A stretch of 32,000 bases of DNA. It comes from Candidatus Brocadia sp. (GTDB taxonomy: Bacteria > Planctomycetota > Brocadiia > Brocadiales > Brocadiaceae). Below are positions 1 through 25,362 of the stretch, in pieces. The translations under genes were made by a program, and so were the position numbers. Under the pieces are notes generated by a model. It was given only the letters and a program-made list of their open reading frames with translations, made no database searches and had not been told where the DNA came from. Location: contig CP091279.1 of the NCBI GenBank assembly GCA_021650915.1, positions 3,870,001-3,902,000 of the forward strand, read 5' to 3'. Positions within the stretch are counted from its first letter, which is position 1. Every line of letters begins with the position of its first letter.

Positions 1-1778
1 CCGTCATGGGGCTTATTGTGGTAGGTATGGGGCTCCTTGATATTTCTCTCTGGTTCTTTGTGTTCCGCAAATTTACCAGCATTTCGCTGCTTGATATGGC
101 TATGATGCTGCCGTGTTTTGGCATCGGCGCAAGCTCTCAGGCCTTGTTTGCCAGGGTAGGTGGTGGGATATTCACCAAGGCTGCCGATGTAGGAGCTGAT
201 CTGGTGGGTAAAGTGGAGGCAGGCATTCCCGAAGACGATCCAAGAAATCCCGCCACGATTGCCGACAACGTCGGTGACAACGTTGGCGACGTAGCAGGGA
301 TGGGCGCTGACTTGTATGAATCGTACTATAATTCCATGCTGGCCTGCGCGGCGCTGGGGGTAACTGCCGGTCTTGGCATCGCCGGTATGGTGGTGCCGAT
401 GATTCTGGCGGGGCTTGGCATATTCCTCTCCATTATCGGAATTTATGCGGTTAAAACAAAGGAAGAGGCATCCCAAAAAGAACTCCTGAAGGCGCTGGGA
501 AAAGGCATCAACCTCAGCTCTGTCCTGATCTTGATTTCCTCAGCTGTGGTGATCAAGTATATGCTGCCCCAGAATTTTGGCATCTGGGGTTCGATTGTGA
601 CCGGATTGATAGCGGGCGTTATAGTCGGTAAGGGTACCGAATACTATACCTCTTCCAATTATTCGCCGACCAAGGGCATTGCCGGAAATGCAAAGACAGG
701 CCCGGCAACGGTCATTATCGACGGTATTGCCACGGGCATGATGTCTACCATTATCCCCGTTATTACCATTTCTGCGGCGATTTTATTAAGTTATGCCTTT
801 GCAGGCGGTTTTTCAAATATTTCACTTGGTCTTTACGGGATTGCCATTGCAGCAGTGGGTATGCTTTCCACTCTGGGATTAACCTTGGCAACGGATGCTT
901 ACGGGCCTATTGCCGATAATGCCGGTGGTAATGCAGAAATGAGCGGTCTTGAACCCTATGTCAGGGAAAGGACGGATGCACTCGATGCATTAGGAAATAC
1001 CACGGCAGCAACCGGAAAAGGTTTTGCCATCGGTTCTGCTGCGCTCACGGCCATGGCCCTGATCGCCTCCTTTGTTGAACAAATAAAAGTGGGATTGGAA
1101 CGATCGGGGACGACGGTTATTCAGGTTGCCGGAACATCGATTAATTTGGCCAGTGCAAAATTATCTGATCTGATGGGTTACCTGGATGTTACCTTGATTA
1201 ACCCCAAGGTGCTCATCGGTTTATTTATTGGCGGTATGGCGTCGTTTGTATTCAGCGCTATGACGATGAAGGCGGTGGGGCGTGCCGCAGGAAGTATGGT
1301 GGAAGAGGTGCGAAGGCAATTTAGAGAAATCGCGGGGATCATGGAAGGAACCGGCAAACCAGACTATGCAGCCTGTGTGGCGATCAGCACCAAAGGAGCG
1401 CAGCGTGAGATGTTTGTGCCTGCCCTTCTCGCCTTACTGGTACCAATTGTTACCGGCTTGATTTTAGGTGTCCCCGGAGTTGTAGGCCTTTTAGCGGGAA
1501 GCTTAACGGTAGGGTTCCTGCTGGCAGTCTTTATGGCCAATGCAGGCGGCGCCTGGGATAACGCGAAAAAGTATATTGAAAGCGGCATCCTGGGCGGAAA
1601 GGGTTCGCCGGCGCATAAGGCTGCAGTCGTTGGCGATACGGTGGGAGACCCCTTCAAAGACACATCAGGTCCGTCTTTGAATATCCTGCTGAAACTCATG
1701 TCAATTGTGTCGGTTGTCTTTGCGGGCATTATCATCAAATTTTCACCCAAAATAGGCGCCCTTTTGCACCTTCACTAG
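1..1778 (+). CDS. hppA: Membrane-bound ion-translocating pyrophosphatase, 5' end cut by window edge
   Basis: ORF 6..1778 is open to the window start. Multi-TM protein with V-PPase motifs GDNVGDVAGMGADL, DAYGPIADNAGG and GDTVGDPFKDTSGPSLNIL. Confidence 0.93.
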   Translation, partial: VMGLIVVGMGLLDISLWFFVFRKFTSISLLDMAMMLPCFGIGASSQALFARVGGGIFTKAADVGADLVGKVEAGIPEDDPRNPATIADNVGDNVGDVAGMGADLYESYYNSMLACAALGVTAGLGIAGMVVPMILAGLGIFLSIIGIYAVKTKEEASQKELLKALGKGINLSSVLILISSAVVIKYMLPQNFGIWGSIVTGLIAGVIVGKGTEYYTSSNYSPTKGIAGNAKTGPATVIIDGIATGMMSTIIPVITISAAILLSYAFAGGFSNISLGLYGIAIAAVGMLSTLGLTLATDAYGPIADNAGGNAEMSGLEPYVRERTDALDALGNTTAATGKGFAIGSAALTAMALIASFVEQIKVGLERSGTTVIQVAGTSINLASAKLSDLMGYLDVTLINPKVLIGLFIGGMASFVFSAMTMKAVGRAAGSMVEEVRRQFREIAGIMEGTGKPDYAACVAISTKGAQREMFVPALLALLVPIVTGLILGVPGVVGLLAGSLTVGFLLAVFMANAGGAWDNAKKYIESGILGGKGSPAHKAAVVGDTVGDPFKDTSGPSLNILLKLMSIVSVVFAGIIIKFSPKIGALLHLH

Positions 1779-3955: not shown

Positions 3956-4663
3956 GTAACACTTTAGTTCTTTGAAAAATTAACAAGCGATTTTGCAAGC
4001 AAACCCAGAAGGCGTTTTCACCATAAGGGCATTTTTTGCGCTAGCCAGAAGATTTTCCACTGGATTGATTCTTTGTAATTCAGCAGAACGAAGCAGAGAC
4101 ATAAGGATGGCCTGTGTCTTAGCGCCATCCTCAGAGCGGTTCTGCTGTGAGACCTTTCTGGTCAATACTGGCTTTCGCATCTGTTGCTCAGCATGGTTGT
4201 TATAGGGACTGACACCCTCATGTTCCAGGAACGTGAAGAGTTCCTGTTTATGGCGGTTCAGGCGTTTGATCAATCTTTGTGCGTCTTTATCCTGGCAGGG
4301 TGTTGCCAAAAACTGTTCAAGCCTGCAATACAGTCTATTTTTGAGCCTGAGAAAGCATACCGGGTTTATCTGGTGCTTTTTCTCGGATAGCCGGATGGCA
4401 TCCCTGAGTAATCGGGAGAGTTTTCTCCTGAAACTTTTCCATGAGACAGAATGGTTGTAGGTGTCTACTTTCACGAGTTCCGTAAAGAGATGATAGAAAC
4501 ACCGCTGCTTTGCCAGTGCGCTTGTCTTGTTATAAGCGCCCCAGAAGTCGCAGATCAGGATGCCCTTGAAGAGTCTGCCTAAGAACCTTTTTATGACAGG
4601 CGACCCCCGATTCCGTGTTATAAGGTAGTAGCAGAGGGTTTTGGTGGTAAAACACCATAACCA
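3956..4663 (-). mobile_element. IS66-family (single-ORF type) element, 3' ~700 bp only
   Basis: Terminal repeat GTAACACTTTAGTTCTTTGAAAAATTA at 3956. The transposase frame is open from 4663 down to the stop at 3980 (GILICDFWGAYNK...NNHAEQQMRKPVLTRKVS). 4105-4663 is colinear with 22681-23258. Homology stops abruptly at 4663/4664. Confidence 0.8.
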
Positions 4664-4829
4664 ATGGGGGGGACCTTGGTGTCACCCATTAGAAGGCTTT
4701 TGTCAAGCGAAAAAAAATTCTCCGTAGCAAAAAATCGTAGATTTTTTACCTTATCAAATGAAAAAAATTTACCTTATCCAACAAGCATTCATCCCATTGA
4801 CCGCACCCGTATTTTCTCTTGTTTTTTAG
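4664..4829 (-). repeat. Repeat P, copy 1 (paralog of 20462-20677)
   Basis: The reverse complement starts CTAAAAAACAAGAGAAAATACGGGTGCGGTCAATGGGATGAATGCTT, almost identical to 20462-20508. Similarity then weakens but stays colinear to ...AAAAAATCTA.GATT.TTTGC. Confidence 0.6.
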
Positions 4830-5483
4830 TTACGGATTACAAAAAATCCGCACCAGTCACCCATCCGGATCTAGGCTCGTGCTGAACAAATCCAGCACAC
4901 ATTCAGGAATTATTCCCCATGTACATGAGGACATGCTTATATGATGAATTCCTTTGCCCCTGGCAAGTTTCTGCCCCAGAAAATCATTGGTACTATGCTG
5001 TGTCCAATTGATTGTCACAAACCTGTGGCTCTCTGGCCAACCCCTTGTGGCTCGCAGCATAGGCGGACTTTGAAGATGATGCCTTCAGCCCCTGTTTTAT
5101 GAATGGAACAGCTTCCCAATCAAACCTCATGGATTGATTACCAACCCCACTACCGGTTCACTGTCCCATTCTTTCATTCCTTTACATACCTCTGCTTCCC
5201 TGCTCTTTCATCTCTGTGATCTGGCCCTCCTCTCTTGCACTTGTTCCTTTGCCTTTGCTCCTCACATGACTTCCTCTTTAAACATATCTTTTTTCGGGTG
5301 TTGAATAATCCATGAATGGCTTTTTCCAAGGCAATCTCCTGCCACCCCTCGTACCGATTATTGGCAAAAGTATCCGGGATTCCCTTTCCCTTACTCCTTT
5401 CTCTGGTGAGTGGAACAGTTTCCATTCGGTTTGGGTTTATAAACCACTTTGTATCTCTTTGGTTCCCTGCTCCACTCACAGTT
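4830..5483 (-). ncRNA. 654-nt coding-free right arm of the IS110 element; candidate structured or guide RNA region
   Basis: No convincing ORF. A 13-bp stem (5406-5418 with 5467-5479) and an 11-bp stem (5101-5111 with 5161-5171) each contain a G.U pair that is valid only in the transposase-sense transcript. Palindrome GGTTTATAAACC at 5434-5445. Confidence 0.35.
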
Positions 5484-6500
5484 CTATTGAAATAATTTCT
5501 TCGGATCAAATGGCGTTTGGTCTTTTATGATAAAGTAGCACGCCCTGGCTACCTTGTTACTCAATGCCTTAATCGCCACGATCTTGTTCGTCTTCGCTGC
5601 CTTGCGTTGATGCCAACTCCTGGCAGGTTCGCTATACCTCCGCATAAAATTTGCCGCTTCCACATATGCCCATGCCAAATACTTATTCCCGTTCTTCTTA
5701 TTCCCCTCTCCTTTCTTCTTCCCGTTTGATATCTTTTGGGACGATACACACCGGCAGTATGAGGAATAATCTGATACCGTGGGAAATCGGTTAATATCTC
5801 CGGTCTCAAGCATGATCGTTATCCCTAATATCTTGCCTATCCCCGGCACGGTGAGCAGTTCTTCATACGGATATCGTAATTTTACCTCTTTCAGTACGGC
5901 CTTTTCTATCCGGTCTATCTGTTCATGGAAAAAGTCTATGACTGCCTTGTCGCTCTGCACGGCCATTTTGTGGTGTTCGTCCGTTAACTGCTCGCTTATC
6001 TTTTCTTCGCTCAGTCTCTTCGCATCGTTGACGTTCACCTTTCTTCCGGTATTGCGATTCACCATGTTTTGCAGGCTTAATAGGTGCGCCGTTCTGTGCC
6101 GTACCAACATGGTTCGCTTTCTTAACAAATCCCGTATCGGCCTTATCTCTTTCGGATAAATGTACCCTTCCGGTAACATGCCCAAACGAAGTAAATGCGC
6201 CAGCCAATAGGAATCCCAGGTATCATCCGTGTACTTCATTCCACTATACTGCTGCATCTCTGCAGGATTTGCCAGGTGCACCTTGTATTTCGCCGCCTGC
6301 AGTCCGTCCACCAGCCAATACCAGTTGTACGTCGACTCTACCACGATCCCTTCTATCTCTTTCTGAAACGGCTTTAATTCCTTTAATATTAAGCCAAGAT
6401 CATTGGGGAGCTTCTTCCCAAATATCCGACTATCGTTCTTATCTATCACCCCCACGTAACTATTATCCGAATGCAAATCTATTCCCACAAAATATCTCAT
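5484..6500 (-). CDS. IS110-family DEDD transposase/recombinase (338 aa)
   Basis: N-terminal MRYFVGIDLHSDNSYVGV (RuvC-like DEDD start) and a C-terminal Transposase_20-like region (LLTVPGIGKILGITIMLETGDINRF...SG...GNKYLAWAYVEAA). AGGAGG lies upstream of the ATG. Confidence 0.9.
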   Translation of the reverse strand: MRYFVGIDLHSDNSYVGVIDKNDSRIFGKKLPNDLGLILKELKPFQKEIEGIVVESTYNWYWLVDGLQAAKYKVHLANPAEMQQYSGMKYTDDTWDSYWLAHLLRLGMLPEGYIYPKEIRPIRDLLRKRTMLVRHRTAHLLSLQNMVNRNTGRKVNVNDAKRLSEEKISEQLTDEHHKMAVQSDKAVIDFFHEQIDRIEKAVLKEVKLRYPYEELLTVPGIGKILGITIMLETGDINRFPTVSDYSSYCRCVSSQKISNGKKKGEGNKKNGNKYLAWAYVEAANFMRRYSEPARSWHQRKAAKTNKIVAIKALSNKVARACYFIIKDQTPFDPKKLFQ

Positions 6501-6643
6501 ATCTGCTCCTCCTTCTTTCTTACTGTTTTCATGGTTTATTTCACGATGCCTCTATGATACATTTTCGCATCGCTTTGTGAAGGAGCCTTCTATATGATTA
6601 TCAAACCTTGATTTGTGATTTTGATTTGTGATTATTAATGGAC
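6501..6643 (-). promoter_or_regulatory. 143-nt left arm of the IS110 element with a tandem 13-nt repeat
   Basis: Sense AATCACAAATCAA x2 (plus strand 6608-6633), small stems GAAGG/CCTTC and CGATGC/GCATCG, then the RBS. The LE start carries AATAAT, positioned to act as a -10 if joined to the RE end. Confidence 0.35.
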
Positions 6644-6650
6644 AGCCAGG

Positions 6651-7059
6651 ATAGGGGTAGGGAAGGTTTTCGCCTCCCCTTCCTCCGAACCGTACAGGCG
6701 GATCTCCCGCATACGGCTCTCCAGTCAGTGGTTACCCCTTCGGGATTGACAGACTAATGCATGGGCTGTGGTTAATGTGAACAACCCAAGATTAGCAAAG
6801 TACGCATTTGGCCATCTCTGATGGTCTGCACCTCGGCCTCTTCCTTTCCCTCCCCGACGCTTTCTCAGGATGCTCCTCAGTCTCATTCGTATCCAACTGT
6901 CTACTCTTGGAAATGTCGTTTTGTGGCTGTGTTTAAAGTATTCATACCAGTCCCTGAGACTTTTGTTGAGTTCTCCTGTTATACATTTCATGCTCTCTCC
7001 TGAGGTTCGTCTCGTCTTGTGGCGGATTGCTTCTTTGGGAAAAGCCAAGGGTCACATCT
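6651..7059 (-). mobile_element. 5'-truncated group II intron remnant (second intron type): maturase C-terminus plus domains V and VI
   Basis: ORF 6725..7048 ends ...LNKSLRDWYEYFKHS...VDSWIRMRLRSILRKR...NLGLFTL (X/maturase domain). Domain V lies downstream, followed by a hairpin ending ...CCCTACCCCTAT at 6651. Confidence 0.8.
6687..6719 (-). ncRNA. Group II intron domain V
   Basis: Sense sequence GAGCCGTATGCGGGAGATCCGCCTGTACGGTTC matches the canonical DV, with the AGC triad and paired arms. Confidence 0.85.
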
Positions 7060-7061
7060 TA

Positions 7062-8154
7062 TAGATTGTTGCATTAATTAAGTTAATAATTAGTTTCATT
7101 GCTAGATAAAATGTTGTAAAATAGGAGCATGAAAGATGACGGAAGGAAGCTGTCAAGGGAGGTATTGGAGTCTTATCGAATCCGGGCGATCACGCTCAGG
7201 GATAAGATGCATTATTCCGTTAAAGAAATAGGCGAGATATTTGGCATTAAGTATGAAAGTGTCTCAAGGTGGTTCTCTCAATACCGTCGTGGTGGTATAG
7301 AGGCGCTTAAGGAACGCAAAGCAAAGGGCAAGGCGCGAATTGTAAATGCGGATGATTTAAGATGGTTGCAAAGTGTTTTGCAGAATGTCGCGACAAAATA
7401 TGGTTTTTCGACTCCGCTGTGGACCGGAACATATGTTAGAATTCTTTTCCGGCGAGAACGAAAAGTGAATTTGGATCGCAGCACAATATGGCGATATCTG
7501 GTTCGGTTGGGTTTGAGTTTTCAAAAGCCGGAAAAACGTTATTCACAGCAAGACATGGATTTGGTAAAGACATGGATTAGCAAGGAGTGGCCTGAAATTC
7601 AGAAGTGGGCTCAGAAAAACCGGGCTATTATCTATTTTGAGGATGAGTCGGGCGTTTCCCTTGCGCCTGTTATTGGAAAAACATGGGCTCCGATAGGAGA
7701 AACCCCCGTTGTGCGTGTGACCGGGAAACGGGCGGCGTTTTGGCCATGTCGGCGATTTCGCCATCTGGCAGGATGTGTTTCCGTCTGGAGAAACGAAAAG
7801 TTAACGCCCAGGTTCTTATGGAATTTCTGAATCAAATTAGCGTGCAACATCCGCGGCGTAAGGTGGCGGTGATCATGGACCAAGCGCCTTGCCATGTTGC
7901 CAAAAGAATTAAAGCATTGAATGAGGGGTCATCGAAGCTACGCGTATTCCATCTGCCGCCGTATTCACCGGATCTGAATCCGGATGAAAAAGTTTGGCGG
8001 CATATGAAGCATGTCACGCTAAAGAATCACCAGGCACAGGACAAAAAACAACTTGGACGTTTAGTCATTGGAGCGCTTAGAAAAATACAGAAGAACCCTG
8101 AATTGACCAAGAAATTCTTTGAGAATTATTTAACATAGTCAATGCAACGAACTA
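7062..8154 (+). mobile_element. IS630-family element A (1093 bp)
   Basis: Inverted repeats TAGATTGTTGCATTAATTAAG (7062) and reverse complement TAGTTCGTTGCATTGACTATG (8154). TA on both sides (7060-61 and 8155-56), the IS630/Tc1 target duplication. Confidence 0.85.
7129..8138 (+). pseudogene. IS630-family transposase split over two frames (7129..7830 and 7683..8138)
   Basis: HTH N-terminus, DE...D (IYFEDESG, IMDQAPCH) and PPYSPDLNPDEKVW. A -1 frame change is needed near 7720-7740. No convincing slippery site is in register, so a mutation is as likely as recoding. Confidence 0.75.
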
Positions 8155-8247: not shown

Positions 8248-10250
8248 ATAGCTGGTAGGAAGGAGGCGAATCGCCTCCAACCCCCAATCGTCGCCAGATA
8301 CTTTGGACAACGTGACAAAGTATCCTTTTAAACCATACGGCTTTCCCGTAGTTAGCGACCCCATAGTGTTGCTCTGGAGCAGAGAAAAGTAAACTATCAT
8401 GCCTTTGCACGTGCCTTAAGAAATTCTCTTTCAAATGAGAGTAACCCCATCTTAAAGAATCGGTGTACCGGGAAACGTTTGTTGTCAGTTTTCCATTTTC
8501 TCGAAAACTTGAAACTTCTCAGTCTCATGCGTACCCAGCAGTCTAACGAGCGATATACCGTTTGTACATTGCCCAGCCGAAAATAGTTGACATGTCCCCT
8601 TATGACAGGATTTAATGTATCAATGACGGCTTGCAGGTTGACGCCTTGTGTGCGTTTGGTGATGTCTCTGACGGCGTCCTTGAGTTTGTCCAGGGATTTC
8701 ATGCTTACACCCTTGTTCTTGCCCATGAAATTATATCCGAGAAACCGGAAGCCTCGTTTGAAGTTGGTGAGCCTGGTTTTATCCTCGCTCAGCTTCATTT
8801 CAAGTTTCCCTTCGATGATTTCTTTGACGTACTGAAGGGCGGCAGGGAGTTCTTCTTTTGTTTTAGTCATGACAACGAAGTCATCGGCATAGCGGACAAA
8901 TTTATATCCTGCCTTTTCAAGCTCCTTGTCGATGATGTCACCGATAAGGTTTGCAAGCAAGGGAGATATGACGCCTCCTTGCGGAGTGCCTTGATTTGTC
9001 TCATGCACGATGCCGTCCTCCATGACCCCTGCCTTGAGCATGTTCTCGATACTGTTCAAAACCCATCCGTCAGCGATTTTCTCACGCAAGGAGTTCATGA
9101 TAAGCTTGTGAGGTATGGTGTCATAGAACGCCTTTATATCGGCGTCCAAAATGTTCCGATACCCTTGCTGCTTATACTGTTCAATCCGTTTGATAGCATC
9201 ATGACAGCATCTGTTTGGACGAAATCCAAAGCTGTTATCCGAGAATTCTTTCTCGAATATTGGCTCTATGATTTGTCTGAACGCCTGCTGTACTACCCTG
9301 TCCTTGACAATGGGAATGCCAAGAGGTCTCTTGTCATGCCTGCCTTTGGGAATGTAGACCCTTAAGACGGGCGCAGGGTTGTATATGGCGGTTTTCAGTT
9401 CCTTGTGAATAGCTTGTAGATTATTCTCAAGGTCACTTTCAAACTGCTTAATACTTACCCTGTCGAGACCAGCCTTGCCTTTATTCTTCTTTACGTGCCC
9501 AAAAGCCGCATAAAGGTTTCTCAGACTGAATACCTTGTCTCTTAAAGAATGATACTTAAGCATCTCCCGATATGTTCCTTTTGATTGATTCCGGATAATA
9601 GACTTGTCAATCGTGTTTCCTGAGTCGAGATTCCTCCTGACAGAGGCAAAACAAGAGAGGCTCTTGCTACTACTTGCCCATGCAAAGAGTCTCTTTTCTC
9701 ATGGAACGTATTCAATCTACCACGTTTCATCAACTCCACTACGGTTATGCCCCTTCATTCCTGGCTTACACCAGAAACTATTATGAGCAATGCTGACGAC
9801 TTCAAAGACAGACCTGTGAGAGCCAGTCGTCCGTCACCATCTCATACAGCTTGGATTTCGGATTTCCCTTATACCTCGCTGTTAGGGAATTTCTTCCCAA
9901 GACGTAAGTCCTCCCCCGGTCATATGGATTACCCCTTTTCCCTTCGTGATGTATGTTCAAACGCATTATCCAGAGATGTTTTCACCAGGTCTCTTTTGAC
10001 ATCTCCAACAAGGACATTGTCAGTGCTTCACTGAGAAAGGGCAGTTGGCACGAACTAACACGCCATACTCATACACCCCAAAAGGTCGTCTGTACCTCGT
10101 AACTCCGTCATACCCCTCACGGGAATACGCTATCCTTCTACGCATACGGATTGCTCCTTTGTATACGCATAGGTACAAACTTCTCTACGAGGATTTAGGC
10201 TCGCAGAGGTGATATTTTCAACCACTTAGGTATCCCATACTTCAAGGCAC
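8248..10250 (-). mobile_element. Group II intron, copy 1 (about 2003 nt)
   Basis: Colinear and about 99% identical to 20678-22680 on the opposite strand. The 3' end reads ...CCTACCAGCTAT. The 5' boundary is uncertain by about 3 nt (sequence GCGTGCCTTGAAG). Confidence 0.85.
8397..9563 (-). CDS. Group II intron reverse transcriptase/maturase (388 aa, no endonuclease domain)
   Basis: RT blocks include RVYIPKG..RPLGIP, GTPQGGVISPLLAN and YADDFVV. The maturase X domain carries LNPVIRGHVNYF. The protein ends soon after X. Confidence 0.93.
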   Translation of the reverse strand: MLKYHSLRDKVFSLRNLYAAFGHVKKNKGKAGLDRVSIKQFESDLENNLQAIHKELKTAIYNPAPVLRVYIPKGRHDKRPLGIPIVKDRVVQQAFRQIIEPIFEKEFSDNSFGFRPNRCCHDAIKRIEQYKQQGYRNILDADIKAFYDTIPHKLIMNSLREKIADGWVLNSIENMLKAGVMEDGIVHETNQGTPQGGVISPLLANLIGDIIDKELEKAGYKFVRYADDFVVMTKTKEELPAALQYVKEIIEGKLEMKLSEDKTRLTNFKRGFRFLGYNFMGKNKGVSMKSLDKLKDAVRDITKRTQGVNLQAVIDTLNPVIRGHVNYFRLGNVQTVYRSLDCWVRMRLRSFKFSRKWKTDNKRFPVHRFFKMGLLSFEREFLKARAKA

Positions 10251-10316
10251 GCATCTCTCAACCAGTTCAATGGCAGCCATCATATCTTTAGGTATCCTGA
10301 TAGATTTTGTTTTCAT
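10251..10316 (-). pseudogene. First 22 codons of a ribbon-helix-helix-like small gene, cut by intron copy 1
   Basis: MKTKSIRIPKDMMAAIELVERC has a beta-strand plus helix pattern typical of CopG/RHH N-termini. The ATG overlaps the upstream ORF stop (TAATG). Confidence 0.4.
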
Positions 10317-10464: not shown

Positions 10465-12321
10465 TATAGTGTCTGAACGAAAACGCACTTTTTGTAAAAG
10501 TGCGAGGTCGATTTTCTATTTACCAATAGATAATTTTAAGATTTGAGATTAGGGTTTTTGGCAAAAATACTGTTCTTTTACATATTTCCCTTGTTTTCCC
10601 CTTTATTTTAGCCTTGTCTGGGCGTACCTGCCTCCCGGCAGACTGTTTTTCTTCGTGTTTTTTGCTTGCTTAGGCGGCTTTTCGCAACTTTTCGCACTGC
10701 TTCCGTGCCTTCTCCTGCAGCACGTTTCCCAGCTTGTGCAAATTCGCAGCTAACACGCCCATTGCACAATATCTTTTAAAGGCATGCAGCCCTTTGTCCG
10801 GACACCTATCCAAGCCGTGATGCTCCAAACGATTGATATCCGATTCTACCGCCGAGTGCTTGTGCCTTAGCTTCTTAAATGTCTTACCCGATTCCTCTTC
10901 CTGTTCCGCCTTATTCTTCTTGCCCTTCTTGGGAAGGATTACCTCTGGTATATACAAACTCAGCAACTCTTTATTCTCTTTCTTGTAAAAACCTTTATCA
11001 AAACTTATACTCTTTATTGTGCCTTCTCCGTAACGGCTCAACAACCTATCTGCCAATGGAATTACCAACGATACATCCGCCTGTTTTTCTCCTACCACAT
11101 GGTCCACGATGAAACCCCACTGATCGCTTGCTACCAGAATATTATGTCCCAACTCTACCCTTTTGTTTGACTTGCCTTTGTACAGCCACTCCGTATGCGG
11201 CTCAAACAACGAATGAACCTTTTCTGCCGCCGGTATTACCTCATCCCGGATCACCCTTCTCTCCACCAGGTCTATCTGTTTATTCAACATCCCGTGAAAA
11301 TACTCCAGTGTCCCTATTTTCCCTGCATGCTTGTCTACCTGGTTCGTCGTTAGCACCTTTTCGTAGATGGCTAACAGACTCGCTCCTATCTTTTCACTCA
11401 AACCCCTCGATAATTCCAAGTAACTCCTCACATGCTCTTCCTTGTTTTTCCCCCCGCTGCTTGACGCCTTTGCGCTTATCCTCATCAGCTTTTTTAACTC
11501 TCTCCTCCAATATTTGCTCTTGCGCCATCCTTTCCCCGCCAGGATGCCTTCCTCTATTGCATCCTCTATCATGTCCAGACTCTTGCGTCCCGCATCCCAC
11601 AATAAATTCATATCGGTCGGAAAGTGTACATTCGTCTCTAACACATACGTATCCACCTTAATACACAGTCCTTCGTCCTTTTTTTTAACCAACTGATGCC
11701 CCGATGATATCACCACTTCATTTATCTGCCTGAGGGTCTCCTCATCCAACAATCTTATATTGTCCTTGATGCTCTGCATCGAAAAAACCTTCGCCTCTCC
11801 AAATGCCGTCTCAACCCCCATTATCTGCCTGATAAGTTTGTGATGGTTGGCAAAATCCTCCAACCTGTCATAATCGGCATCTAACCCTAATCTTACCACC
11901 GACAACACCAAAATATGCCATAAATCCATCCCATATCTTCCCGTCTTTTTCTTCCCCTTCGTTACCTTCGCCTCTAATATCCGGAATACCTCCTCGTTCA
12001 ACTCCGGTGTAACATAGATATGTTGCAACGCCCTCAGTATCGGTGGTAGCTCATCTCGACTCTTTATTGGCAGTTTTACCCCTGAAATGGGTATGATGCC
12101 AAGCTTCAATTGCTGCTCAAATCTCTTTCTCATCTTCTATCGAATGTCCTTTGGCTAGTGGGTTAATGAACCGAATATTTGGACTCTTTATACCCAGAAT
12201 CCCTTCATTTTCGCCATATTTTACCCTTTTACCCGAAAAAATTCAATGACTTTCATGAACATTTTTCACCAGCTTCTCCTTACTTTACAGGGCTCTGGGG
12301 GGTTTCCGTTCAAACACTATA
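10465..12321 (-). mobile_element. IS4/IS5-superfamily insertion sequence (1857 bp)
   Basis: About 20-bp terminal inverted repeats TATAGTGTCTGAACGAAAAC (10465) and reverse complement TATAGTGTTTGAACGGAAAC (12321). TA on both flanks (10463-64 and 12322-23). Confidence 0.8.
10670..12133 (-). CDS. DDE transposase (487 aa), IS4/IS5 superfamily; family not resolved
   Basis: ISFDKGFY plus a C-terminal RHKHSAVESDINRLEHHGLDRC...GVLAANLHKLG block that resembles the Y-R-E-K region of DDE_Tnp_1-type transposases. Confidence 0.85.
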   Translation of the reverse strand: MRKRFEQQLKLGIIPISGVKLPIKSRDELPPILRALQHIYVTPELNEEVFRILEAKVTKGKKKTGRYGMDLWHILVLSVVRLGLDADYDRLEDFANHHKLIRQIMGVETAFGEAKVFSMQSIKDNIRLLDEETLRQINEVVISSGHQLVKKKDEGLCIKVDTYVLETNVHFPTDMNLLWDAGRKSLDMIEDAIEEGILAGKGWRKSKYWRRELKKLMRISAKASSSGGKNKEEHVRSYLELSRGLSEKIGASLLAIYEKVLTTNQVDKHAGKIGTLEYFHGMLNKQIDLVERRVIRDEVIPAAEKVHSLFEPHTEWLYKGKSNKRVELGHNILVASDQWGFIVDHVVGEKQADVSLVIPLADRLLSRYGEGTIKSISFDKGFYKKENKELLSLYIPEVILPKKGKKNKAEQEEESGKTFKKLRHKHSAVESDINRLEHHGLDRCPDKGLHAFKRYCAMGVLAANLHKLGNVLQEKARKQCEKLRKAA

Positions 12322-20219: not shown

Positions 20220-20461
20220 GATTATTTTTACCATCAGTGGGGTGGCTTCTCCTTGGTTTAATCGTTCGGCTGAGCGCTCACGATGAAGCCCGCTCCACGC
20301 AGCCGTCATTGCAAATGAAACGAAACAATCTCTCTTTATCATAATCGTTACCAGCCATTTCGTTCATTCCCCATCCCGCGTAAATTATTCACATGCGCCG
20401 AAAATATGTGGTAGGCAATGCCTGCCAGAAATATATGGCAGACAATAACTACCACTCCCGG

Positions 20462-20677
20462 CTAAAAAACAAGAGAAAATACGGATGCGGTCAATGGGAT
20501 GAATGCTTATGAGACAATACCATTTTTCGTGATAATAAAGGCAAAAAATCTAGTATACAGACATATTAATTACGAATTATATATTGTGGACAATTATAGT
20601 TATATAGTGCTGCAAAACAGCATTTATATGTTTCGTTATTAATATGTCTGTACACTAGGATTGTTTGCGAGAGAGGC
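20462..20677 (+). repeat. Repeat P, copy 2, interrupted by MITE A and ending at the intron 5' junction
   Basis: CTAAAAAACAAGAGAAAATACGGATGCGGTCAATGGGATGAATGCTT... is colinear with the reverse complement of 4664-4829. Confidence 0.6.
20553..20655. mobile_element. 103-bp MITE A (IS630/Tc1-type)
   Basis: TIRs GTATACAGACATATTAATTAC and reverse complement GTGTACAGACATATTAATAAC. TA on both flanks (20551-52 and 20656-57). About 90% identical to the reverse complement of 24983-25085. Confidence 0.8.
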
Positions 20678-22680
20678 GTGCCTTGAAGTATGGGATACCT
20701 GAGTGGTTGAAAATATCACCTCTGCGAGCCTAAATCCTCGTAGAGAAGTTTGTACCTATGCGTATACAAAGGAGCAATCCGTGTGCGTAGAAGGATAGCG
20801 TATTCCCGTGAGGGGTATGACGGAGTTACGAGGTACAGACGACCTTTTGGGGTGTATGAATATGGCGTGTTAGTTCGTGCCAACTGCCCTTTCTCAGTAA
20901 AGCACTGACAAATGTCCTTGTTGGAGATGATGCAAGCGATTCGGTGAAAACATCTCTGGATAATGCGTTTGAACATACATCACGAAGGGAAAAGGGGTAA
21001 TCCATATGACCGGGGGAGGACTTACGTCTTGGGAAGAAATTCCCTAACAGCGAGGTATAAGGGAAATCCGAAATCCAAGCTGTATGAGATGGTGACGGAC
21101 GACTGGCTCTCACAGGTCTGTCTTTGAAGTCGTCAGCAGTGCTCATAATAGTTTCTGGTGTAAGCCGGAAATGAAGGGGCATAACCGTAGTGGAGTTGAT
21201 GAAAGTGGTAGATTGAATACGTTCCATGAGAAAAGAGACTCTTTGCATGGGCAAGTAGTAGCAAGAGCCTCTCTTGTTTTGCCTCTGTCAGGAGGAATCT
21301 CGACTCAGGAAACACGATTGACAAGTCTATTATCCGGAATCAATCAAAAGGAACATATCGGGAGATGCTTAAGTATCATTCTTTAAGAGACAAGGTATTC
21401 AGTCTGAGAAACCTTTATGCGGCTTTTGGGCACGTAAAGAAGAATAAAGGCAAGGCTGGTCTCGACAGGGTAAGTATTAAGCAGTTTGAAAGTGACCTTG
21501 AGAATAATCTACAAGCTATTCACAAGGAACTGAAAACCGCCATATACAACCCTGCGCCCGTCTTAAGGGTCTACATTCCCAAAGGCAGGCATGGCAAGAG
21601 ACCTCTTGGCATTCCCATTGTCAAGGACAGGGTAGTACAGCAGGCGTTCAGACAAATCATAGAGCCAATATTCGAGAAAGAATTCTCGGATAACAGCTTT
21701 GGATTTCGTCCAAACAGATGCTGTCATGATGCTATCAAACGGATTGAACAGTATAAGCAGCAAGGGTATCGGAACATTTTGGACGCCGATATAAAGGCGT
21801 TCTATGATACCATACCTCACAAGCTTATCATGAACTCCTTGCGTGAGAAAATTGCTGACGGATGGGTGTTGAACAGTATCGAGAACATGCTCAAGGCAGG
21901 GGTCATGGAGGACGGCATCGTGCATGAGACAAATCAAGGCACTCCGCAAGGAGGCGTCATATCTCCCTTGCTTGCAAACCTTATCGGTGACATCATCGAC
22001 AAGGAGCTTGAAAAGGCAGAATATAAATTTGTCCGCTATGCCGATGACTTCGTTGTCATGACTAAAACGAAAGAAGAACTCCCTGCCGCCCTTCAGTACG
22101 TCAAGGAAATCATCGAAGGGAAACTTGAAATGAAGCTGAACGAGGATAAAACCAGGCTCACCAACTTCAAACGAGGCTTCCGGTTTCTCGGATATAATTT
22201 CATGGGCAAGAACAAGGGTGTAAGCATGAAATCCCTGGACAAACTCAAGGACGCCGTCAGGGACATCACCAAACGCACACAAGGCGTCAACCTGCAAGCC
22301 GTCATTGATACATTAAATCCTGTCATAAGGGGACATGTCAACTATTTTCGGCTGGGCAATGTACAAACGGTATATCGCTCGTTAGACTGCTGGGTACGCA
22401 TGAGACTGAGAAGTTTCAAGTTTTCGAGAAAATGGAAAACTGACAACAAACGTTTCCCGGTACACCGATTCTTTAAGATGGGGTTACTCTCATTTGAAAG
22501 AGAATTTCTTAAGGCACGTGCAAAGGCATGATAGGTTACTTTTCTCTGCTCCAGAGCAACACTATGGGGTCGCTAACTACGGGAAAGCCGTATGGTTTAA
22601 AAGGATACTTTGTCACGTTGTCCAAAGTATCTGGCGACGATTGGGGGTTGGAGGCGATTCGCCTCCTCCCTACCAGCTAC
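20678..22680 (+). mobile_element. Group II intron, copy 2 (about 2003 nt)
   Basis: Same element as 8248-10250. The 3' end ...CCTACCAGCTAC abuts internal IS66 sequence at 22681. The 5' boundary is uncertain by about 3 nt. Confidence 0.85.
21365..22531 (+). CDS. Group II intron reverse transcriptase/maturase (388 aa)
   Basis: Differs from the 8397..9563 product at 3 residues (D77G, G219E, S256N). YADD and X domain are intact. Confidence 0.93.
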   Translation: MLKYHSLRDKVFSLRNLYAAFGHVKKNKGKAGLDRVSIKQFESDLENNLQAIHKELKTAIYNPAPVLRVYIPKGRHGKRPLGIPIVKDRVVQQAFRQIIEPIFEKEFSDNSFGFRPNRCCHDAIKRIEQYKQQGYRNILDADIKAFYDTIPHKLIMNSLREKIADGWVLNSIENMLKAGVMEDGIVHETNQGTPQGGVISPLLANLIGDIIDKELEKAEYKFVRYADDFVVMTKTKEELPAALQYVKEIIEGKLEMKLNEDKTRLTNFKRGFRFLGYNFMGKNKGVSMKSLDKLKDAVRDITKRTQGVNLQAVIDTLNPVIRGHVNYFRLGNVQTVYRSLDCWVRMRLRSFKFSRKWKTDNKRFPVHRFFKMGLLSFEREFLKARAKA

Positions 22681-23817
22681 ATAAGGATGGCCTCTGTCTT
22701 AGCGCCATCCTCAGAGCGGTTCTGCTGTGAGACCTTTCTGGTCAATACTGGCTTTCGCATCTGTTGCTCAGCATGGTTGTTATAGGGACTGACATCCTCA
22801 TGTTCCAGGAACGTAAAGAGTTCCTGTTTATGGCGGTTCAGGCGTTTGGTCAATCTTTGTGCATCTTTGTGCATCTTTATCCTGGCAGGGTGTTGCCAAA
22901 AACTGTTCAAGCCTGCAATACAGTCTATTTTTAAGCCTGAGAAAGCATGCCGGGTTTATCTGGTGCTTTTTCTCGGATAGCCGGATGGCATCCCTGAGTA
23001 ATCGGGAGAGTTTTCTCCTGAAACTTTTCCATGAGACAGAATGGTTGTAGGTGTCTACTTTCACGAGTTCCGTAAAGAGATGATAGAAACACCGCTGCTT
23101 TGCCCGTGCGCTTGTCTTGTTATAAGCGCCCCAGAAGTCGCAGATCAGGATGCCCTTGAAGAGTCTGCCTAAGAACCTTTTTTATGACAGGCGACCCCCG
23201 ATTCCGTGTTATAAGGTAGTAGCAGAGGGTTTTGGTGGTAAAACACCATAACCAATGGGTTTTTCCATTCAACCGCCACCCGGTTTCATCTGCGTGCAAG
23301 ACGGCGCTGGTAGAGACCTTTTGTCCAATATCGTTATACTGTGGTTCCAGGAGTGTTGCAAGAGCCTTCCAGGCCTGGGTTAAACCACCGGCGCTTACGT
23401 GAAGATTGAAAAATACGGAAACCATCTTTACAAGGTTGTTTACACTGATACCGACTACGTAATGAAGCCAGGCGGTAAAGACAACGAGGCGCAATCCGAG
23501 TCGGGCGTTTGGCAAGGCATCGGTGAGCGCGGGCTGAACGATCTTTTTGCAACAAGCACACCAGTAGCCATGAACCGTATGTTCCGTCACGACAGGGTCG
23601 ACCCGGGGGATATCCTCGATGTATCGCTTATACGTTCTCACCGGCTTTTGTAATGACTGCTGGCAGTCAGGGCACCTCTCCAGGGTATGTGTCTTATAGG
23701 CAGTTATGGTTTCCGGTCGTCTTCGGGAAACCCCCTTATGTCCTGGTTTTCTGCCACAAGGTCGTTTTCTCTTTTTACGGGTAGGCTTGAGATAAGGTGG
23801 CGTCATGCCCGAAGGGG
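22681..23817 (-). pseudogene. IS66-family transposase remnant, copy 2
   Basis: Zinc-finger and DDE region (CPDCQQSL...HADETGWRLNG...). Lesions relative to copy 1: a 10-bp tandem duplication GTGCATCTTT (22859-22878) and one extra T in the run at 23178-23183. The 3' end is replaced by the intron. No terminal repeat is present at the 5' side. Confidence 0.8.
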
Positions 23818-23819
23818 TA

Positions 23820-24980
23820 GTGTGTTGACAAATTAATTACAATACATTATGCTGTGCTTCATGAGACAAGCAAAAATTCAACTTACCGAGGAAGAACGAG
23901 CAAACTTGAAGTCATTTCGCTCCAAGGGGCAGCACATGACAAGAGAAGTCAATCGTGCGCATATATTATCGGCTTTAGACCAAAATGTGCCTGAAAAACA
24001 TATTCTGTCTGTTCTGGGTGTTGGCCGCACTGCCATTTGGCGGACACGCTCTGCATATCTTGAGAAGGGCTTGGATTATGCACTTCACGATGTTGTCAGA
24101 CCCGGTCAGCCGGTAAAATACGGAACCAACCAACAAGCCGAAGTCGTAGCTTTGGCATGTAGTGCACCACCGAAGGGTGCCAGGCGCTGGACAATCGCCT
24201 TGTTGACTGAAGCAATAAGGCAACAGCTAAAACTTAGAAAGATTAGTCGTGAAAGTATCCGTCTCTTTCTAAAAAAAACGACTGTAAGCCGTGGCGGAAA
24301 TTGATGTGGTGTATTGGTAAATTGACTGAGGAATACCGCCAAAGGATGTATGATTTGCTGGAACTCTACACGAGGTCTTATTGTGAGGACGAGCCAGTGA
24401 TTTGCGTAGACGAGAAGAGTAAGCAGCTTTTGGAACAACCGCGCCTCCCAATTCCTGCCAGTCCGGGCAATCCTGTCAAAGAGGACTGCGAGTATAAACG
24501 TGCCGGCACCCGTAATATTTTCATGGCAGTTGAACCTAAGGGTGGTTGTAGACAGGTTGAAGTGACAACCCGTCGTACCAAGAGAGATTTTGTCCAGTTC
24601 ATCGGCCATTTGGTAAAAAAAGTCTATGTAAGGGCGCTCAAGATTCATCTGGTGTTGGACAATCTTAATACTCATTTTCGCAGTAGTTTTGAAGAAATAT
24701 TGGGTGTTGAAGAAGCGACCCAAATGTTGGAACGAGTAGAATTTCATTATACTCCCAAGCATGCCAGTTGGCTTAATATGGCTGAAATTGAAATCGGCAT
24801 CATGGATCGGCAGTGTACTGGGTGCCGAATACCAAACGAACAAACCCTTCGGTCGGAAGTCGCTGCGTGGACTGACCGACGCAATCAGGCCAAATCAACA
24901 ATAGATTGGAAGTTTACACGGCAAGATGCTGATCAAAAGCTGTCAAGGCACTATGTTTCGTAATTAATTTGTTGTAATAC
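23820..24980 (+). mobile_element. IS630-family element B (1161 bp)
   Basis: IRs GTGTGTTGACAAATTAATTAC (23820) and reverse complement GTATTACAACAAATTAATTAC (24980). TA at 23818-19 and 24981-82. Confidence 0.85.
23849..24963 (+). CDS. IS630-family transposase, two frames joined by a -1 shift at an A8 run
   Basis: orfA 23849..24304 (HTH) and orfB frame to 24963 (VICVDEKS...VLDNLNTH...HASWLNMAEIE). A -1 slip on CTA-AAA-AAA-ACG (24271-24278) gives LKKNDCKPWRKLMWCIG, the usual IS630 KKN..KPW...WCI junction. Confidence 0.8.
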
Positions 24981-24982
24981 TA

Positions 24983-25085
24983 GTGTAGAGACATATCAAT
25001 AACGAAACATATAAATGCTGTTTTGCGGCGCGATATAGCTAAAATTGTCCACAATATATAATTTGTAATTAATATGTCTGTATAC
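24983..25085. mobile_element. 103-bp MITE B (IS630/Tc1-type)
   Basis: Inverted copy of MITE A. TA at 24981-82 and 25086-87. The left TA is the same TA that flanks IS630 element B. Confidence 0.8.
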
Positions 25086-25087
25086 TA

Positions 25088-25362
25088 GAATACATGCTGT
25101 AATTTCTTTAAAAATTCGATAAAGTCTGCACGCTTATGGCTTTTACTTACATGGGCAATTACTTTTCCACTATGCAAGTCAATACCACTCAGCAATGAAA
25201 CAGTTCCGTGTCTTACGTATTCATGGTCTCTCATCAGGGTTGGATGTTTGCCAGGTACTGGCAATAAATCTTCCGATGTGTTTCCCTTTGCCTGAATTCC
25301 GGGTTTTTCATCATAACTTACAGTAATTTTGTCTATGGCAAAGTCTTGGTAGAGTAGAAAAA
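25088..25362 (-). pseudogene. Internal fragment of a third IS630-like transposase
   Basis: ...ITVSYDEKPGIQAK...YVRHGTVSLLSGIDLHSGKV...RADFIEFLKKL. Cut by MITE B on one side and by the IS at 25363 on the other. Confidence 0.7.

What the first reader, a model, noticed from the sequence alone, without database searches (positions are those of the whole stretch)
4830..6643. IS110-family element with long non-coding arms: candidate element-encoded guide (bridge/seek-type) RNA
Seen in sequence: a 338-aa DEDD-type IS110-family recombinase (5484-6500, minus strand) sits between a 143-nt upstream arm and a 654-nt downstream arm that has no credible ORF. If 4830-6643 is removed, the joint reads ...CTACCCCTATCCTGG-CT-AAAAAACAAGAG. 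This resembles the uninterrupted paralog at 20447-20475 (...CTACCACTCCCGG-CT-AAAAAACAAGAG). CT is present at both junctions. Joining the proposed right end to the left end gives TTGTAA-16 nt-AATAAT, a plausible sigma70 promoter that exists only in a circular or tandem junction. The right arm contains long stems whose G.U pairs work only in the transposase-sense transcript. It also contains a near-copy of the left terminus (sense CTGTTCCATTCATAA at 5097-5111 versus CTGTCCATTAATAA at the LE start, 6632-6645). Established knowledge: IS110/IS1111 recombinases have been reported to use an RNA encoded in a non-coding end, with two loops that pair with target and donor DNA. Inference: one of these arms encodes such an RNA. 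The right arm is much longer than I would expect for this family, so it may hold extra cargo. I could not identify the guide loops by eye.
Basis: partly seen in the sequence, partly recalled or inferred. Interest (0 to 1): 0.75.

Follow-up and report, generated by a model that had tools for sequence, protein, structure and literature searches.

The report
IS1111-type insertion sequence with guide RNA
This is an intact RNA-guided insertion sequence of the IS110/IS1111 family in an anammox bacterium (Candidatus Brocadia); its long downstream non-coding arm encodes a conserved multi-loop RNA whose first loop spells out the DNA site the element inserts into, so it is a known kind of mobile element, though relatives carry extra, alternative guide loops that have not been described in the papers I could search.

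Summary
The proposed boundaries are wrong. Multi-copy relatives and a 96%-identical copy elsewhere put the element at about 4682-6603, with 8-bp subterminal inverted repeats and a shared TGA at both junctions. The "uninterrupted paralog" at 20447-20475 is an internal fragment of a second right arm, not an empty site. The downstream arm is about 800 nt. About 500 nt of it are conserved in 60-70 loci across phyla. They include a 226-nt two-loop RNA (5176-4951): 34 base pairs, 27 with compensatory changes, 0/500 shuffles. The 3' side of loop 1 equals the five left-flank bases plus TGA (4.39/5 against 2.76 shuffled, 0/2000). Its 5' side complements TGA-CCCC on the right flank. This is the IS1111/seekRNA layout. 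The corrected circle junction gives TTGACA-17-GATAAT. What loop 2 does, and how the donor ends are recognised, are unresolved. An internal copy of the right end covaries with the true end in four lineages. Relatives carry a third loop, and their flanks match either loop (21/29 against 5.2, 0/5000). Verdict: a known kind with a variant RNA architecture.

The parts
4682..6603 (-). Whole IS1111-type element, counting the TGA present at both junctions (about 1.92 kb)
   Evidence: 96.3% identity to L081-L083 over window 6610..4678 and none beyond. Termini conserved in multi-copy families.
6601..6603 (-). TGA shared core at the left junction. The left flank AGGTT (6608-6604) is target-derived.
   Evidence: Junction table of 58 loci. 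The five flank bases vary between copies of one element and match RNA loop 1.
6585..6600 (-). Left end: extension TAATCATA (6600-6593) plus subterminal inverted repeat TAGAAGGC (6592-6585)
   Evidence: Conserved across families. Inverted repeat partner is 4697-4690.
6554..6581 (-). Promoter-like site TTCACA-16-TATCAT upstream of the recombinase gene (possible resident promoter)
   Evidence: Consensus scan, 10/12 matches. The number of such sites in the region is not above shuffles, so this is weak.
5484..6500 (-). Recombinase gene, 338 aa, DEDD RuvC-like domain plus Tnp C-terminal domain
   Evidence: Pfam PF01548 and PF02371. Distant match to IS621 (8wt6, E 1.4e-6) and ISCro4 (9t56, E 4.6e-7), with the GID, E, D..D and S positions aligned.
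5382..5482 (-). Degenerate extra loop module M0' (outer stem 5479-5467 / 5418-5406) directly after the stop codon
   Evidence: Covariance model hit of 20.1 bits, E 3e-4. Conserved in L001, L010, L002 and L081. The equivalent position in relatives holds a full guide loop (63-81 bits).
5177..5381 (-). Purine-rich lineage-specific spacer, non-coding. L002 lacks 5194-5393.
   Evidence: Present only in Brocadia-type copies. A+G is 68%, and the ORF is not conserved.
4951..5176 (-). Two-loop guide RNA (seekRNA / bridge-RNA-like): module 1 at 5171-5101, module 2 at 5064-4992, third hairpin at 4975-4962
   Evidence: Model R1 hit of 184 bits, E 2.9e-46. 34-pair structure: 91% paired against 78.7% shuffled, 27 pairs with compensatory changes, 0/500.
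5142..5153 (-). Module 1, 5' guide GUAGUGGGGUUG: complementary to the top strand of TGA + CCCC + nnn (right half of the target)
   Evidence: Diagonal of complementarity, RNA cols 26-36 against +9..-1, mean 0.82. CCCC positions 0.72-0.93, next three 0.43-0.52, 2/2000 shuffles.
5120..5127 (-). Module 1, 3' guide AGGUU-UGA: identical to left flank + core, so it would pair with the bottom strand
   Evidence: Window flank AGGTT-TGA is an exact match. Family-wide 4.39/5 against 2.76 +/- 0.17, 0/2000. Replicated in metagenome loci.
4853..4871 (-). Internal copy of the right terminus (ATGGGTGA at 4864-4857): candidate left-donor guide or alternative end
   Evidence: Nearly invariant. It mirrors lineage-specific changes of the true terminus in L026, L078, L031 and L053, but not the copy-specific T/C at the first core base.
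4832..4851 (-). Conserved hairpin GCGGAU..AUCCGU.
   Evidence: Alignment A1 and coordinates. Homology continues across 4830 in about 60 loci.
4716..4747 (-). A/U-rich hairpin (4747-4729) followed by a U-run. Possible transcript end.
   Evidence: Conserved position in alignments A1 and the distal-arm alignment. It is not called as a terminator by the scan, so its function is inferred.
4682..4706 (-). Right end: -35 box TTGACA (4706-4701), inverted repeat GCCTTCTA (4697-4690), extension ATGGG (4689-4685), core TGA (4684-4682)
   Evidence: CTTGAC is invariant in 42 sequences. The circle junction gives TTGACA-17-GATAAT here and TTGAC[ACGT]-15..18-GATAAT (or a close variant) in 58 of 63 loci.
20457..20554 (+). 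Not part of this copy.
   Evidence: nhmmer E 1.2e-9 to element positions 1807-1905. Inverted repeat I5.

Best explanation
Window about 4682-6603 (minus strand) is an intact IS1111-type member of the IS110 family. Transposition is carried out by a DEDD/serine recombinase and guided by an RNA encoded downstream of the gene.

Shown: the element ends, the 8-bp subterminal inverted repeats, a shared TGA at both junctions, and a preferred target of about AG-nnn/TGA/CCCC. Also shown is a covariation-supported two-loop RNA at 5176-4951. In loop 1, the 3' side is identical to the five left-flank bases plus TGA, and the 5' side is complementary to TGA plus the right flank. The two matches overlap at the crossover, and the top-strand match lies 5' in the RNA, as in published IS1111 seekRNAs.

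Inferred: the element excises as a circle whose junction creates the promoter TTGACA-17-GATAAT. That promoter would transcribe the recombinase gene and the downstream RNA as one transcript, which would then be processed. The recombinase-RNA complex would pair loop 1 with both strands of a matching target and exchange strands at TGA.

Unresolved: how the donor ends are read. Candidates are the protein-bound subterminal repeats, loop 2, or the internal RNA-level copy of 'right end + core' at 4864-4857.
For: Protein family and catalytic positions. Ends from five multi-copy families and from a 96%-identical independent copy. About 500 nt of the arm are conserved in 60-73 of 80 loci. RNA structure: 91% paired against 78.7% in shuffles and 29-42% when slid, 27/34 compensatory pairs, covariation 0.418 against 0.203, 0/500. 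Abundant G.U pairs fix the strand. The model finds the RNA downstream of the gene in 70 or more loci. Left-flank identity is 4.39/5 against 2.76 +/- 0.17, 0/2000. Right-flank complementarity is 0.72-0.93 over CCCC, and 2/2000 for the next bases. An unbiased diagonal search recovers exactly these two matches. The window's own flank AGGTT-TGA equals its loop-1 guide. The junction promoter is conserved. The layout agrees with IS1111 seekRNA features in PMC11187229 and with the bridge-RNA logic in PMC11208160.
Against: There are no expression or activity data. The window's right flank (CACCAAGG) matches the loop-1 prediction (CCCCACUA) only partly. L081 shares CACC, so a few bases there may belong to the element. 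Right-half covariation is weak. No loop matches the circle-junction donor. Thermodynamic folding alone does not favour the sense strand (z -1.83 against -2.26). The C-terminal motif reads ..SQKISNGK rather than the G(L)-P----S/TG consensus quoted for IS1111 transposases. Rfam has no matching family.
Confidence: 0.85

Rival explanations
1. One reading: the element spans 4830-6643 with a CT core, inserted into a site like TATCCTGG-CT-AAAAAACA, whose empty paralog is at 20447-20475.
For: 87 nt left of 4830 are 77% similar to 20462-20548. CT occurs at both proposed junctions.
Against: Homology to relatives runs through 4830 to 4679 in about 60 loci. Five identical Scalinduaceae copies end at the position equivalent to about 4682. 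The 96% copy matches to 4678 and starts at 6610. The 20457-20554 piece is therefore internal arm sequence.
Confidence: 0.02
2. The conserved downstream region is a 3' UTR, a protein-binding region or a regulatory structure with no guide role. The match between loop 1 and the flank would arise because those five bases belong to the element and are merely co-inherited.
For: Positions inside the element also show 0.25-0.38 excess 'covariation' with RNA columns because of shared descent. There are no functional data.
Against: Co-inheritance does not make two distant segments identical. The five bases differ between copies of one element (AGTCC / AGGCC / ATGCC in L044-47; AGATT / AGACT in L005-9) while the rest is 99.8% identical. 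In three-loop elements, sister copies carry flanks equal to one or the other loop. The two matches overlap at the crossover, as in experimentally proven seekRNAs.
Confidence: 0.05
3. Loop 2 (5064-4992) is the donor-binding loop of a classical two-loop bridge RNA.
For: It has the same architecture as loop 1 and a conserved position. Published models predict a target loop and a donor loop in IS1111 elements. Its guide-equivalent bases are much less variable than those of loop 1, as expected for a loop that reads conserved ends. In some lineages its 3' side contains UGAyAAUCA, resembling core + left end.
Against: No diagonal of identity or complementarity to the circle junction reaches significance. 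Its best matches are short versions of the target matches. It shows no covariation with left-end variants (TATCCA, TAGTCA, TATTCA, TATACA). Its 5' variable bases do not track anything tested (1460/2000).
Confidence: 0.35
4. The internal right-end copy (4871-4853) is a second DNA end used for modular transposition, as with the A/B and A'/B' boxes of ISPpu9. It would not be an RNA guide.
For: It resembles the true end (GCCTT..ATGGGTGAC) and covaries with it. Solo pieces of the distal arm exist (window 20457-20554; L010 5231-5289). There is precedent in PMC12288879.
Against: No copy was found that ends at this motif. L032 and L071 continue normally until the contig ends. No left-end-like box follows it. 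The solo fragments do not start at it.
Confidence: 0.25

Closest known systems
IS1111-family elements with a seekRNA (ISEc11, ISKpn4, ISPa11, ISPst6; Siddiquee et al. 2024, PMC11187229)
   Same: A 338-aa DEDD transposase. Subterminal inverted repeats with short terminal extensions. A long non-coding region downstream of the gene. [quoted passage not shown] A junction promoter. Site-specific insertion without a true duplication.
   Different: The conserved non-coding region is about 500 nt (about 800 nt in this copy), against a 70-100 nt seekRNA or 145-170 nt long form. It holds two or three tandem loops of the same design, plus an internal copy of the right terminus. The transposase C-terminal motif is ..ISNGK.. 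and the protein is only distantly related to characterised members.
IS621 bridge RNA (Durrant et al. 2024, PMC11208160; Hiraizumi et al. 2024, PMC11208158)
   Same: An internal-loop guide that reads the left half on the bottom strand and the right half on the top strand. Both guide segments include the core. The same recombinase family, with catalytic positions aligned.
   Different: The RNA lies downstream rather than upstream of the gene. The guide order within the loop is reversed. The core is TGA rather than CT. No loop could be matched to the donor junction.
ISPpu9 modular element (PMC12288879)
   Same: An IS110-family element with a repeated end-like box inside its downstream region, and solo copies of downstream pieces elsewhere in the genome. 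It targets palindromic repeats.
   Different: ISPpu9 belongs to the IS110 group, has A'/B' boxes flanking a separate sRNA gene, and forms no junction promoter. Here no left-end-like box follows the internal motif, and a junction promoter is conserved.
Target-loop-only RNA of CazIS110-1 (bioRxiv 10.1101/2025.10.25.684509)
   Same: A stand-alone target-binding loop RNA that acts alongside the full RNA. This is conceptually close to the extra single-loop module M0.
   Different: There the short RNA is a truncated product of the one bridge RNA. Here the extra loops are separately encoded and carry different guide sequences.

Membership tests
IS110 family (DEDD recombinase elements) | N-terminal DEDD RuvC-like domain (PF01548) plus C-terminal Tnp domain (PF02371) | tested here: met
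   5.7e-15 and 1.6e-13, both above the curated cut-offs.
IS110 family (DEDD recombinase elements) | Catalytic D, E, D, D and the C-terminal serine, as in IS621 | tested here: met
   The phmmer alignment to 8wt6 places GID, vvEs, tDdtwD and kiSng opposite the IS621 GID, iEa, tDtvD and eSg. The alignment is low-scoring (31 bits), so this is positional only.
IS1111 subgroup | Subterminal inverted repeats of 7-17 bp with short terminal extensions | tested here: met
   TAGAAGGC (6592-6585) and GCCTTCTA (4697-4690), with extensions of 8 and 5 nt. Conserved family-wide.
IS1111 subgroup | Longer non-coding region downstream of the transposase gene; transposase of 330-350 aa | tested here: met
   About 100 nt upstream against about 800 nt downstream; 338 aa. 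Criteria from PMC11187229.
IS1111 subgroup | C-terminal GL-P----S(t)G motif | tested here: inconclusive
   The protein reads ..YCRCVSSQKISNGKKKG.. A serine aligns with the IS621 catalytic serine, but the G/L/P positions and the 'SG' dipeptide are not present as such.
IS1111 subgroup | Site-specific, orientation-specific insertion without target duplication | tested here: met
   Consensus AGAyT|TGA|CCCC across 46-62 independent junction pairs. One TGA is shared between element and target.
IS1111 subgroup | Promoter formed at the circle junction | tested here: met
   At the sequence level only: TTGACA-17-GATAAT in the window, and spacing of 15-18 in 58 of 63 loci. Circle formation and promoter activity are not testable with these tools.
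seekRNA / bridge RNA | Structured RNA in the non-coding end, supported by covariation | tested here: met
seekRNA / bridge RNA | Two guide segments in one internal loop that match opposite strands of the target and overlap at the core | tested here: met
   Replicated for the left half in an independent metagenome set. The right-half signal is weaker.
seekRNA / bridge RNA | A second loop whose guides match the donor (joined ends) | tested here: not met
   No significant match of loop 2, or of any loop, to the circle junction. The only donor-like segment is the internal copy of right end + core.
seekRNA / bridge RNA | The RNA is expressed, binds the recombinase, and is required for transposition | not testable with these tools
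   Needs RNA-seq, co-purification and genetics.
Rfam-curated RNA families | Match to a curated covariance model | tested here: not met
   No hit in the element at gathering threshold or at E up to 10. The only real hit nearby is group II intron domain V/VI at 6651-6721.

The most novel reading that the evidence does not exclude
This clade of IS1111-type elements (anammox Planctomycetota, Desulfobacterota, Nitrospirota and others) encodes an array of two or three seekRNA-like loops, not one seekRNA or one target-plus-donor bridge RNA. The loops would serve as alternative target guides, so one element could home to several different sites. The array would be followed by an RNA-level copy of 'right end + core' that acts as the donor guide. 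In the window copy the first loop has decayed, loop 1 is the active guide, and loop 2 has an unknown role.
Probability: 0.45. Interest if true: 0.65.

Novelty: new variant of a known kind. Interest (0 to 1): 0.5.

Why it matters
RNA-guided IS110/IS1111 recombinases are being developed as programmable tools for inserting DNA. This element is an ordinary member in principle. Its clade, however, shows natural solutions that the characterised systems lack or have not been reported to have.

- **Tandem guide loops.** Flank evidence indicates that either of two loops can specify the left half of the target. This amounts to a natural multiplexed guide array.
- **Internal end mimic.** A conserved internal copy of the right end covaries with the real end. 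It may be how this subgroup reads its donor, which is still an open question for IS1111-type elements.

The work also gives a covariance model and exact ends for a widespread, unannotated family in anammox and sulfate-reducing bacteria. Finally, it shows how a flank-similarity argument can misplace the ends of an IS that has no terminal repeats.

Tried and rejected
- Looking up the exact protein found no contig. Rfam found no bridge-type family.
- I searched the window for an empty target site, and checked beside the second IS66-like copy. There is none.
- **Loop 2 as a target loop.** Its 5' variable bases do not track the right flanks (1460/2000). Its 3' guide (AGAUU/AGAUC) rarely equals the flank.
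- **Loop 2 or other segments as donor guides.** Wobble-tolerant diagonals gave many weak, non-covarying matches, for example GAUUUUC against GATAATC and UGAUUG against TAATCA. None follows the left-end variants.
- 'Rescue' of loop-1 mismatches by another loop was not significant in the first 49 loci (371/5000). It became significant only for the M0/M1 pair in the metagenome set.
- **Coupling test.** The right flank does not agree better with the loop that matched on the left (1.79 against 2.29, n = 14).
- No copies end at the internal end-like motif.
- The 83-aa ORF in the spacer is not conserved, so it is not cargo.
- RNAalifold on the whole distal arm was uninformative because the variable parts align poorly.
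- MFE z-scores do not separate the strands.
Full report
**Observation.** The window comes from an anammox planctomycete. The closest proteins are annotated Candidatus Brocadia. The ORF at 5484-6500 (minus strand) encodes a 338-aa protein with the two Pfam domains of IS110-family recombinases. It aligns distantly with the solved IS621 and ISCro4 transposases, and the catalytic Asp/Glu/Asp/Asp and serine positions line up. The neighbourhood is a pile-up of mobile DNA:

| Window position | Feature |
|---|---|
| ends 4668 | IS66 fragment |
| about 4682-6603 | this element |
| 6651-about 7128 | 3' fragment of a group II intron (domain V/VI plus maturase remnant) |
| from 7129 | IS630-like element that cuts the intron fragment |
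| 8249-10259 | intact group II intron |
| 10670-12133 | IS4-like gene |

**Ends.** I fetched 80 related loci from species-representative genomes. Nucleotide homology to the closest ones runs from about 6621 to about 4681, which passes straight through 4830.

Five copies in one Scalinduaceae genome are 99.8-99.9% identical and then diverge abruptly. Four Desulfobacterota families behave the same way. All share these features:
- a left end ..TGATAATCATATA[AG]A[AG]GGC;
- a right end ..CTTGAC-N-GCCTTTTAATGGGTGA;
- an 8-bp subterminal inverted repeat (here TAGAAGGC and GCCTTCTA);
- TGA at both junctions.

A copy encoding a 98%-identical protein sits beside a Mur ligase gene in another Brocadia genome. 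It is 96.3% identical to window 6610..4678 and unrelated beyond. The element is therefore about 4682-6603.

The 'paralog' is a 98-nt fragment (20457-20554) of the interior of another right arm. No empty site exists in the window.

**The arm.** The downstream non-coding region is about 800 nt. nhmmer shows that its last ~500 nt (5183-4679) are conserved in 60-73 of the 80 loci, from Planctomycetota to Desulfobacterota, Nitrospirota and others. The first ~295 nt occur only in Brocadia-type copies. That lineage-specific part has two pieces. One is a degenerate stem-loop directly after the stop codon (5479-5406). The other is a purine-rich spacer. Gene callers place an 83-aa ORF in the spacer, but it is destroyed by frame-breaking indels in L001 and L010, and L002 lacks 200 nt of it. 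There is no cargo gene.

**The RNA.** An alignment of the conserved region shows two tandem modules of identical design:
- an outer stem;
- a 2-bp inner helix;
- an internal loop;
- a small inner hairpin (GGGGUUGG..AACCAC);
- the internal loop again, then closure of the stem.

A third hairpin follows. On a 37-sequence alignment the 34-pair structure is 91% paired. Column shuffles give 78.7%, and sliding the partners gives 29-42%. Compensatory changes occur in 27 pairs, the covariation score is 0.418 against 0.203, and no shuffle out of 500 reaches it. Several pairs alternate C-G with U-G or G-C with G-U, which only makes sense on the transposase-sense strand.

A covariance model built from this alignment hits the window once at full length (5176-4951, 184 bits). 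It also finds the RNA downstream of the gene in almost every related locus. Thermodynamic folding alone is not discriminating.

**Guides.** Following the logic of the bridge-RNA paper, I anchored both termini in every locus and compared RNA columns with junction positions.

- The 3' side of loop 1 reads AG-nnn-UGA-UUGG. Its five variable bases equal the five bases left of the element. Examples are AGGTT in the window and AGGTG, AGATG, AGATT, AGACT, AAGCC, AGGCC, ATGCC, AGGTC and TTTTT elsewhere.
- The mean is 4.39 of 5 against 2.76 +/- 0.17 when flanks are exchanged between families, with 0 of 2000 shuffles as high.
- Those five bases differ between otherwise identical copies. They are therefore target-derived, not part of the element.
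- The 5' side (..nnnGGGGUUG) is complementary to TGA-CCCC-nnn on the right flank. Agreement is 0.72-0.93 over CCCC and 0.43-0.52 for the next three bases (2 of 2000).
- An unbiased search for diagonals recovers exactly these two matches against the reconstructed target.

The two matches overlap at TGA, and the top-strand match lies 5' in the RNA. This is the arrangement reported for IS1111 seekRNAs, and it is reversed relative to IS621. Many targets look like GGGTCAA-N8-TTGACCC hairpins cut within the right arm, reminiscent of REP targeting.

**Junction promoter.** With the corrected ends, joining right to left gives CTTGACA-AAAGCCTTCTAATGGGT-GATAAT. That is a perfect -35 in the right end, a 17-bp spacer, and a -10 made from the core GA plus TAAT of the left end. 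The CTTGAC box is invariant in the alignment. A comparable junction with 15-18 bp spacing can be built in 58 of 63 loci. In the integrated state the same -35 faces GACACC. This fits the known Pjunc of IS110/IS1111 elements and co-transcription of the gene with the downstream RNA.

**What remains unclear.**
- **Loop 2.** It has the same layout as loop 1, but its guide-equivalent bases are far less variable (AGAUU/AGAUC-UGn; nnAAGGGG). They do not track the flanks, and nothing in loop 2 matches the circle junction. I could not demonstrate a donor-binding loop.
- **Internal end copy.** The only donor-like segment is a nearly invariant internal copy of 'right end + core' (GAUGGGUGAC, 4864-4857 within 4871-4853). 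It mirrors lineage-specific changes of the real terminus in four independent lineages: TGC in L026 and L078, GGA in L031, GAG in L053. It ignores the copy-specific T/C at the first core base. It could be a left-donor guide. Alternatively, by analogy with ISPpu9, it could be a second DNA end. No copy ending there was found.
- **Published precedent.** For ISEc11, a single 82-nt loop suffices if the donor flanks match it. A dedicated donor loop may therefore not be needed in this subgroup.

**Extra loops in relatives.** The model also detects a third module (M0) directly after the stop codon in about ten genome loci. The window keeps only a decayed version (20 bits). M0 has the loop-1 design but different guide bases. 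L075 and L076 are two copies of one element: one has flank AGCTT, which equals M0, and the other has AGATG, which equals M1.

In the first data set this kind of 'rescue' was not significant. I therefore scanned metagenomes for relatives of that element. About 50 of the 80 new loci carry M0. Among 29 elements with two different guides, the left flank equals M0 in 15, M1 in 6 and neither in 8. Shuffling gives 3.0 and 2.2, and 'either' is 21 against 5.2 +/- 1.9 (0 of 5000). Tandem loops therefore act as alternative left-half guides in this clade.

A coupling test on the right flank was negative. How the right half is read in three-loop elements is open, including whether it is read across loops. 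I found no description of such arrays in the searchable literature. The nearest precedent is the target-loop-only RNA of CazIS110-1. Absence from that library is not proof of novelty.

**Verdict.** The finding is a real, intact, probably recently active IS1111-type RNA-guided insertion sequence. Its guide RNA is located, and its target guide is matched to its own insertion site. The element is a known kind. The variant features are clade-level observations worth following up: a ~500-nt conserved RNA region, tandem alternative guide loops, and an internal end mimic.

Noticed in passing
window 6651-7128 (-): 3' fragment of a group II intron: Rfam domain V/VI at 6651-6721 (53.9 bits) and a maturase-domain remnant at 6725-7048. 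It is cut off at 7129 by an IS630-like element (HTH + DDE_3, with a frameshift between 7129-7830 and 7683-8138). The IS1111-type element sits about 46 nt downstream of the intron's 3' end.
   Followed up: partly
window 8249-10259 and 20669-22679: Two inverted copies, 96-99% identical, of a complete ~2-kb group II intron with a 388-aa RT/maturase ORF (8397-9563 minus; 21365-22531 plus).
   Followed up: partly
window 4094-4668 and 22674-23259: Direct repeat (96-100%) of an IS66-family element end. The first copy keeps only the C-terminal part of the transposase (3980-4474). The second abuts the group II intron copy. The flanks beyond the shared end (4668 and 23259) are unrelated.
   Followed up: partly
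window 6608-6633 (-): Perfect tandem duplication of 13 nt (AATCACAAATCAA x2) in the left flank, immediately before the target half-site AGGTT. L001 and L002 have a single similar unit (AATCACTAATCAAGGTG) at the same place, so Brocadia-type copies may prefer a longer conserved target.
   Followed up: no
window 20543-20583 / 20625-20665, and 24976-25104: AT-rich inverted repeats (83-88%) next to the solo arm fragment and the intron copy. Possibly a small non-autonomous element. Not analysed.
   Followed up: no
L010:5205-5289: An apparently empty target-like site (CCAGATG-TGA-CCCCAATTT, matching that element's own loop-1 guide AGAUG-UGA), followed after 13 nt by a solo copy of the last 60 nt of the right arm. 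Its right flank resembles that of the main copy.
   Followed up: no
L033, L034, L035 (Desulfobacteraceae Eth-SRB1): Three copies with an intact recombinase gene and normal ends that lack both RNA loops. They keep only the internal end mimic and the distal arm. They may depend on guide RNA supplied in trans by other copies in the same genome (L028 has the loops).
   Followed up: no
right junctions of many loci (e.g. L016, L033-35, L041): The right junction AATGGG-TGA-CCCCATT is a near-palindrome, and a second TGACCCC often lies 10-20 nt downstream. [quoted passage not shown] UGAUUG in the 3' guide is complementary to TAATCA of the left end. This could allow a single loop to read both target and donor. 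It is speculative and shows no covariation.
   Followed up: partly
window 4678-4681 and L081:4314-4317: Both Brocadia copies have CACC, not the usual CCCC, right after the TGA at the right junction, in unrelated contexts. Either these bases belong to the element in this lineage or the lineage tolerates or prefers this mismatch to its GGGG guide.
   Followed up: no
L104: One metagenome contig carries two different elements of this family in tandem (guides AGACG/AGATG/AGATG and TGGCC/TGATC). This fits the tendency of these elements to insert next to each other.
   Followed up: no
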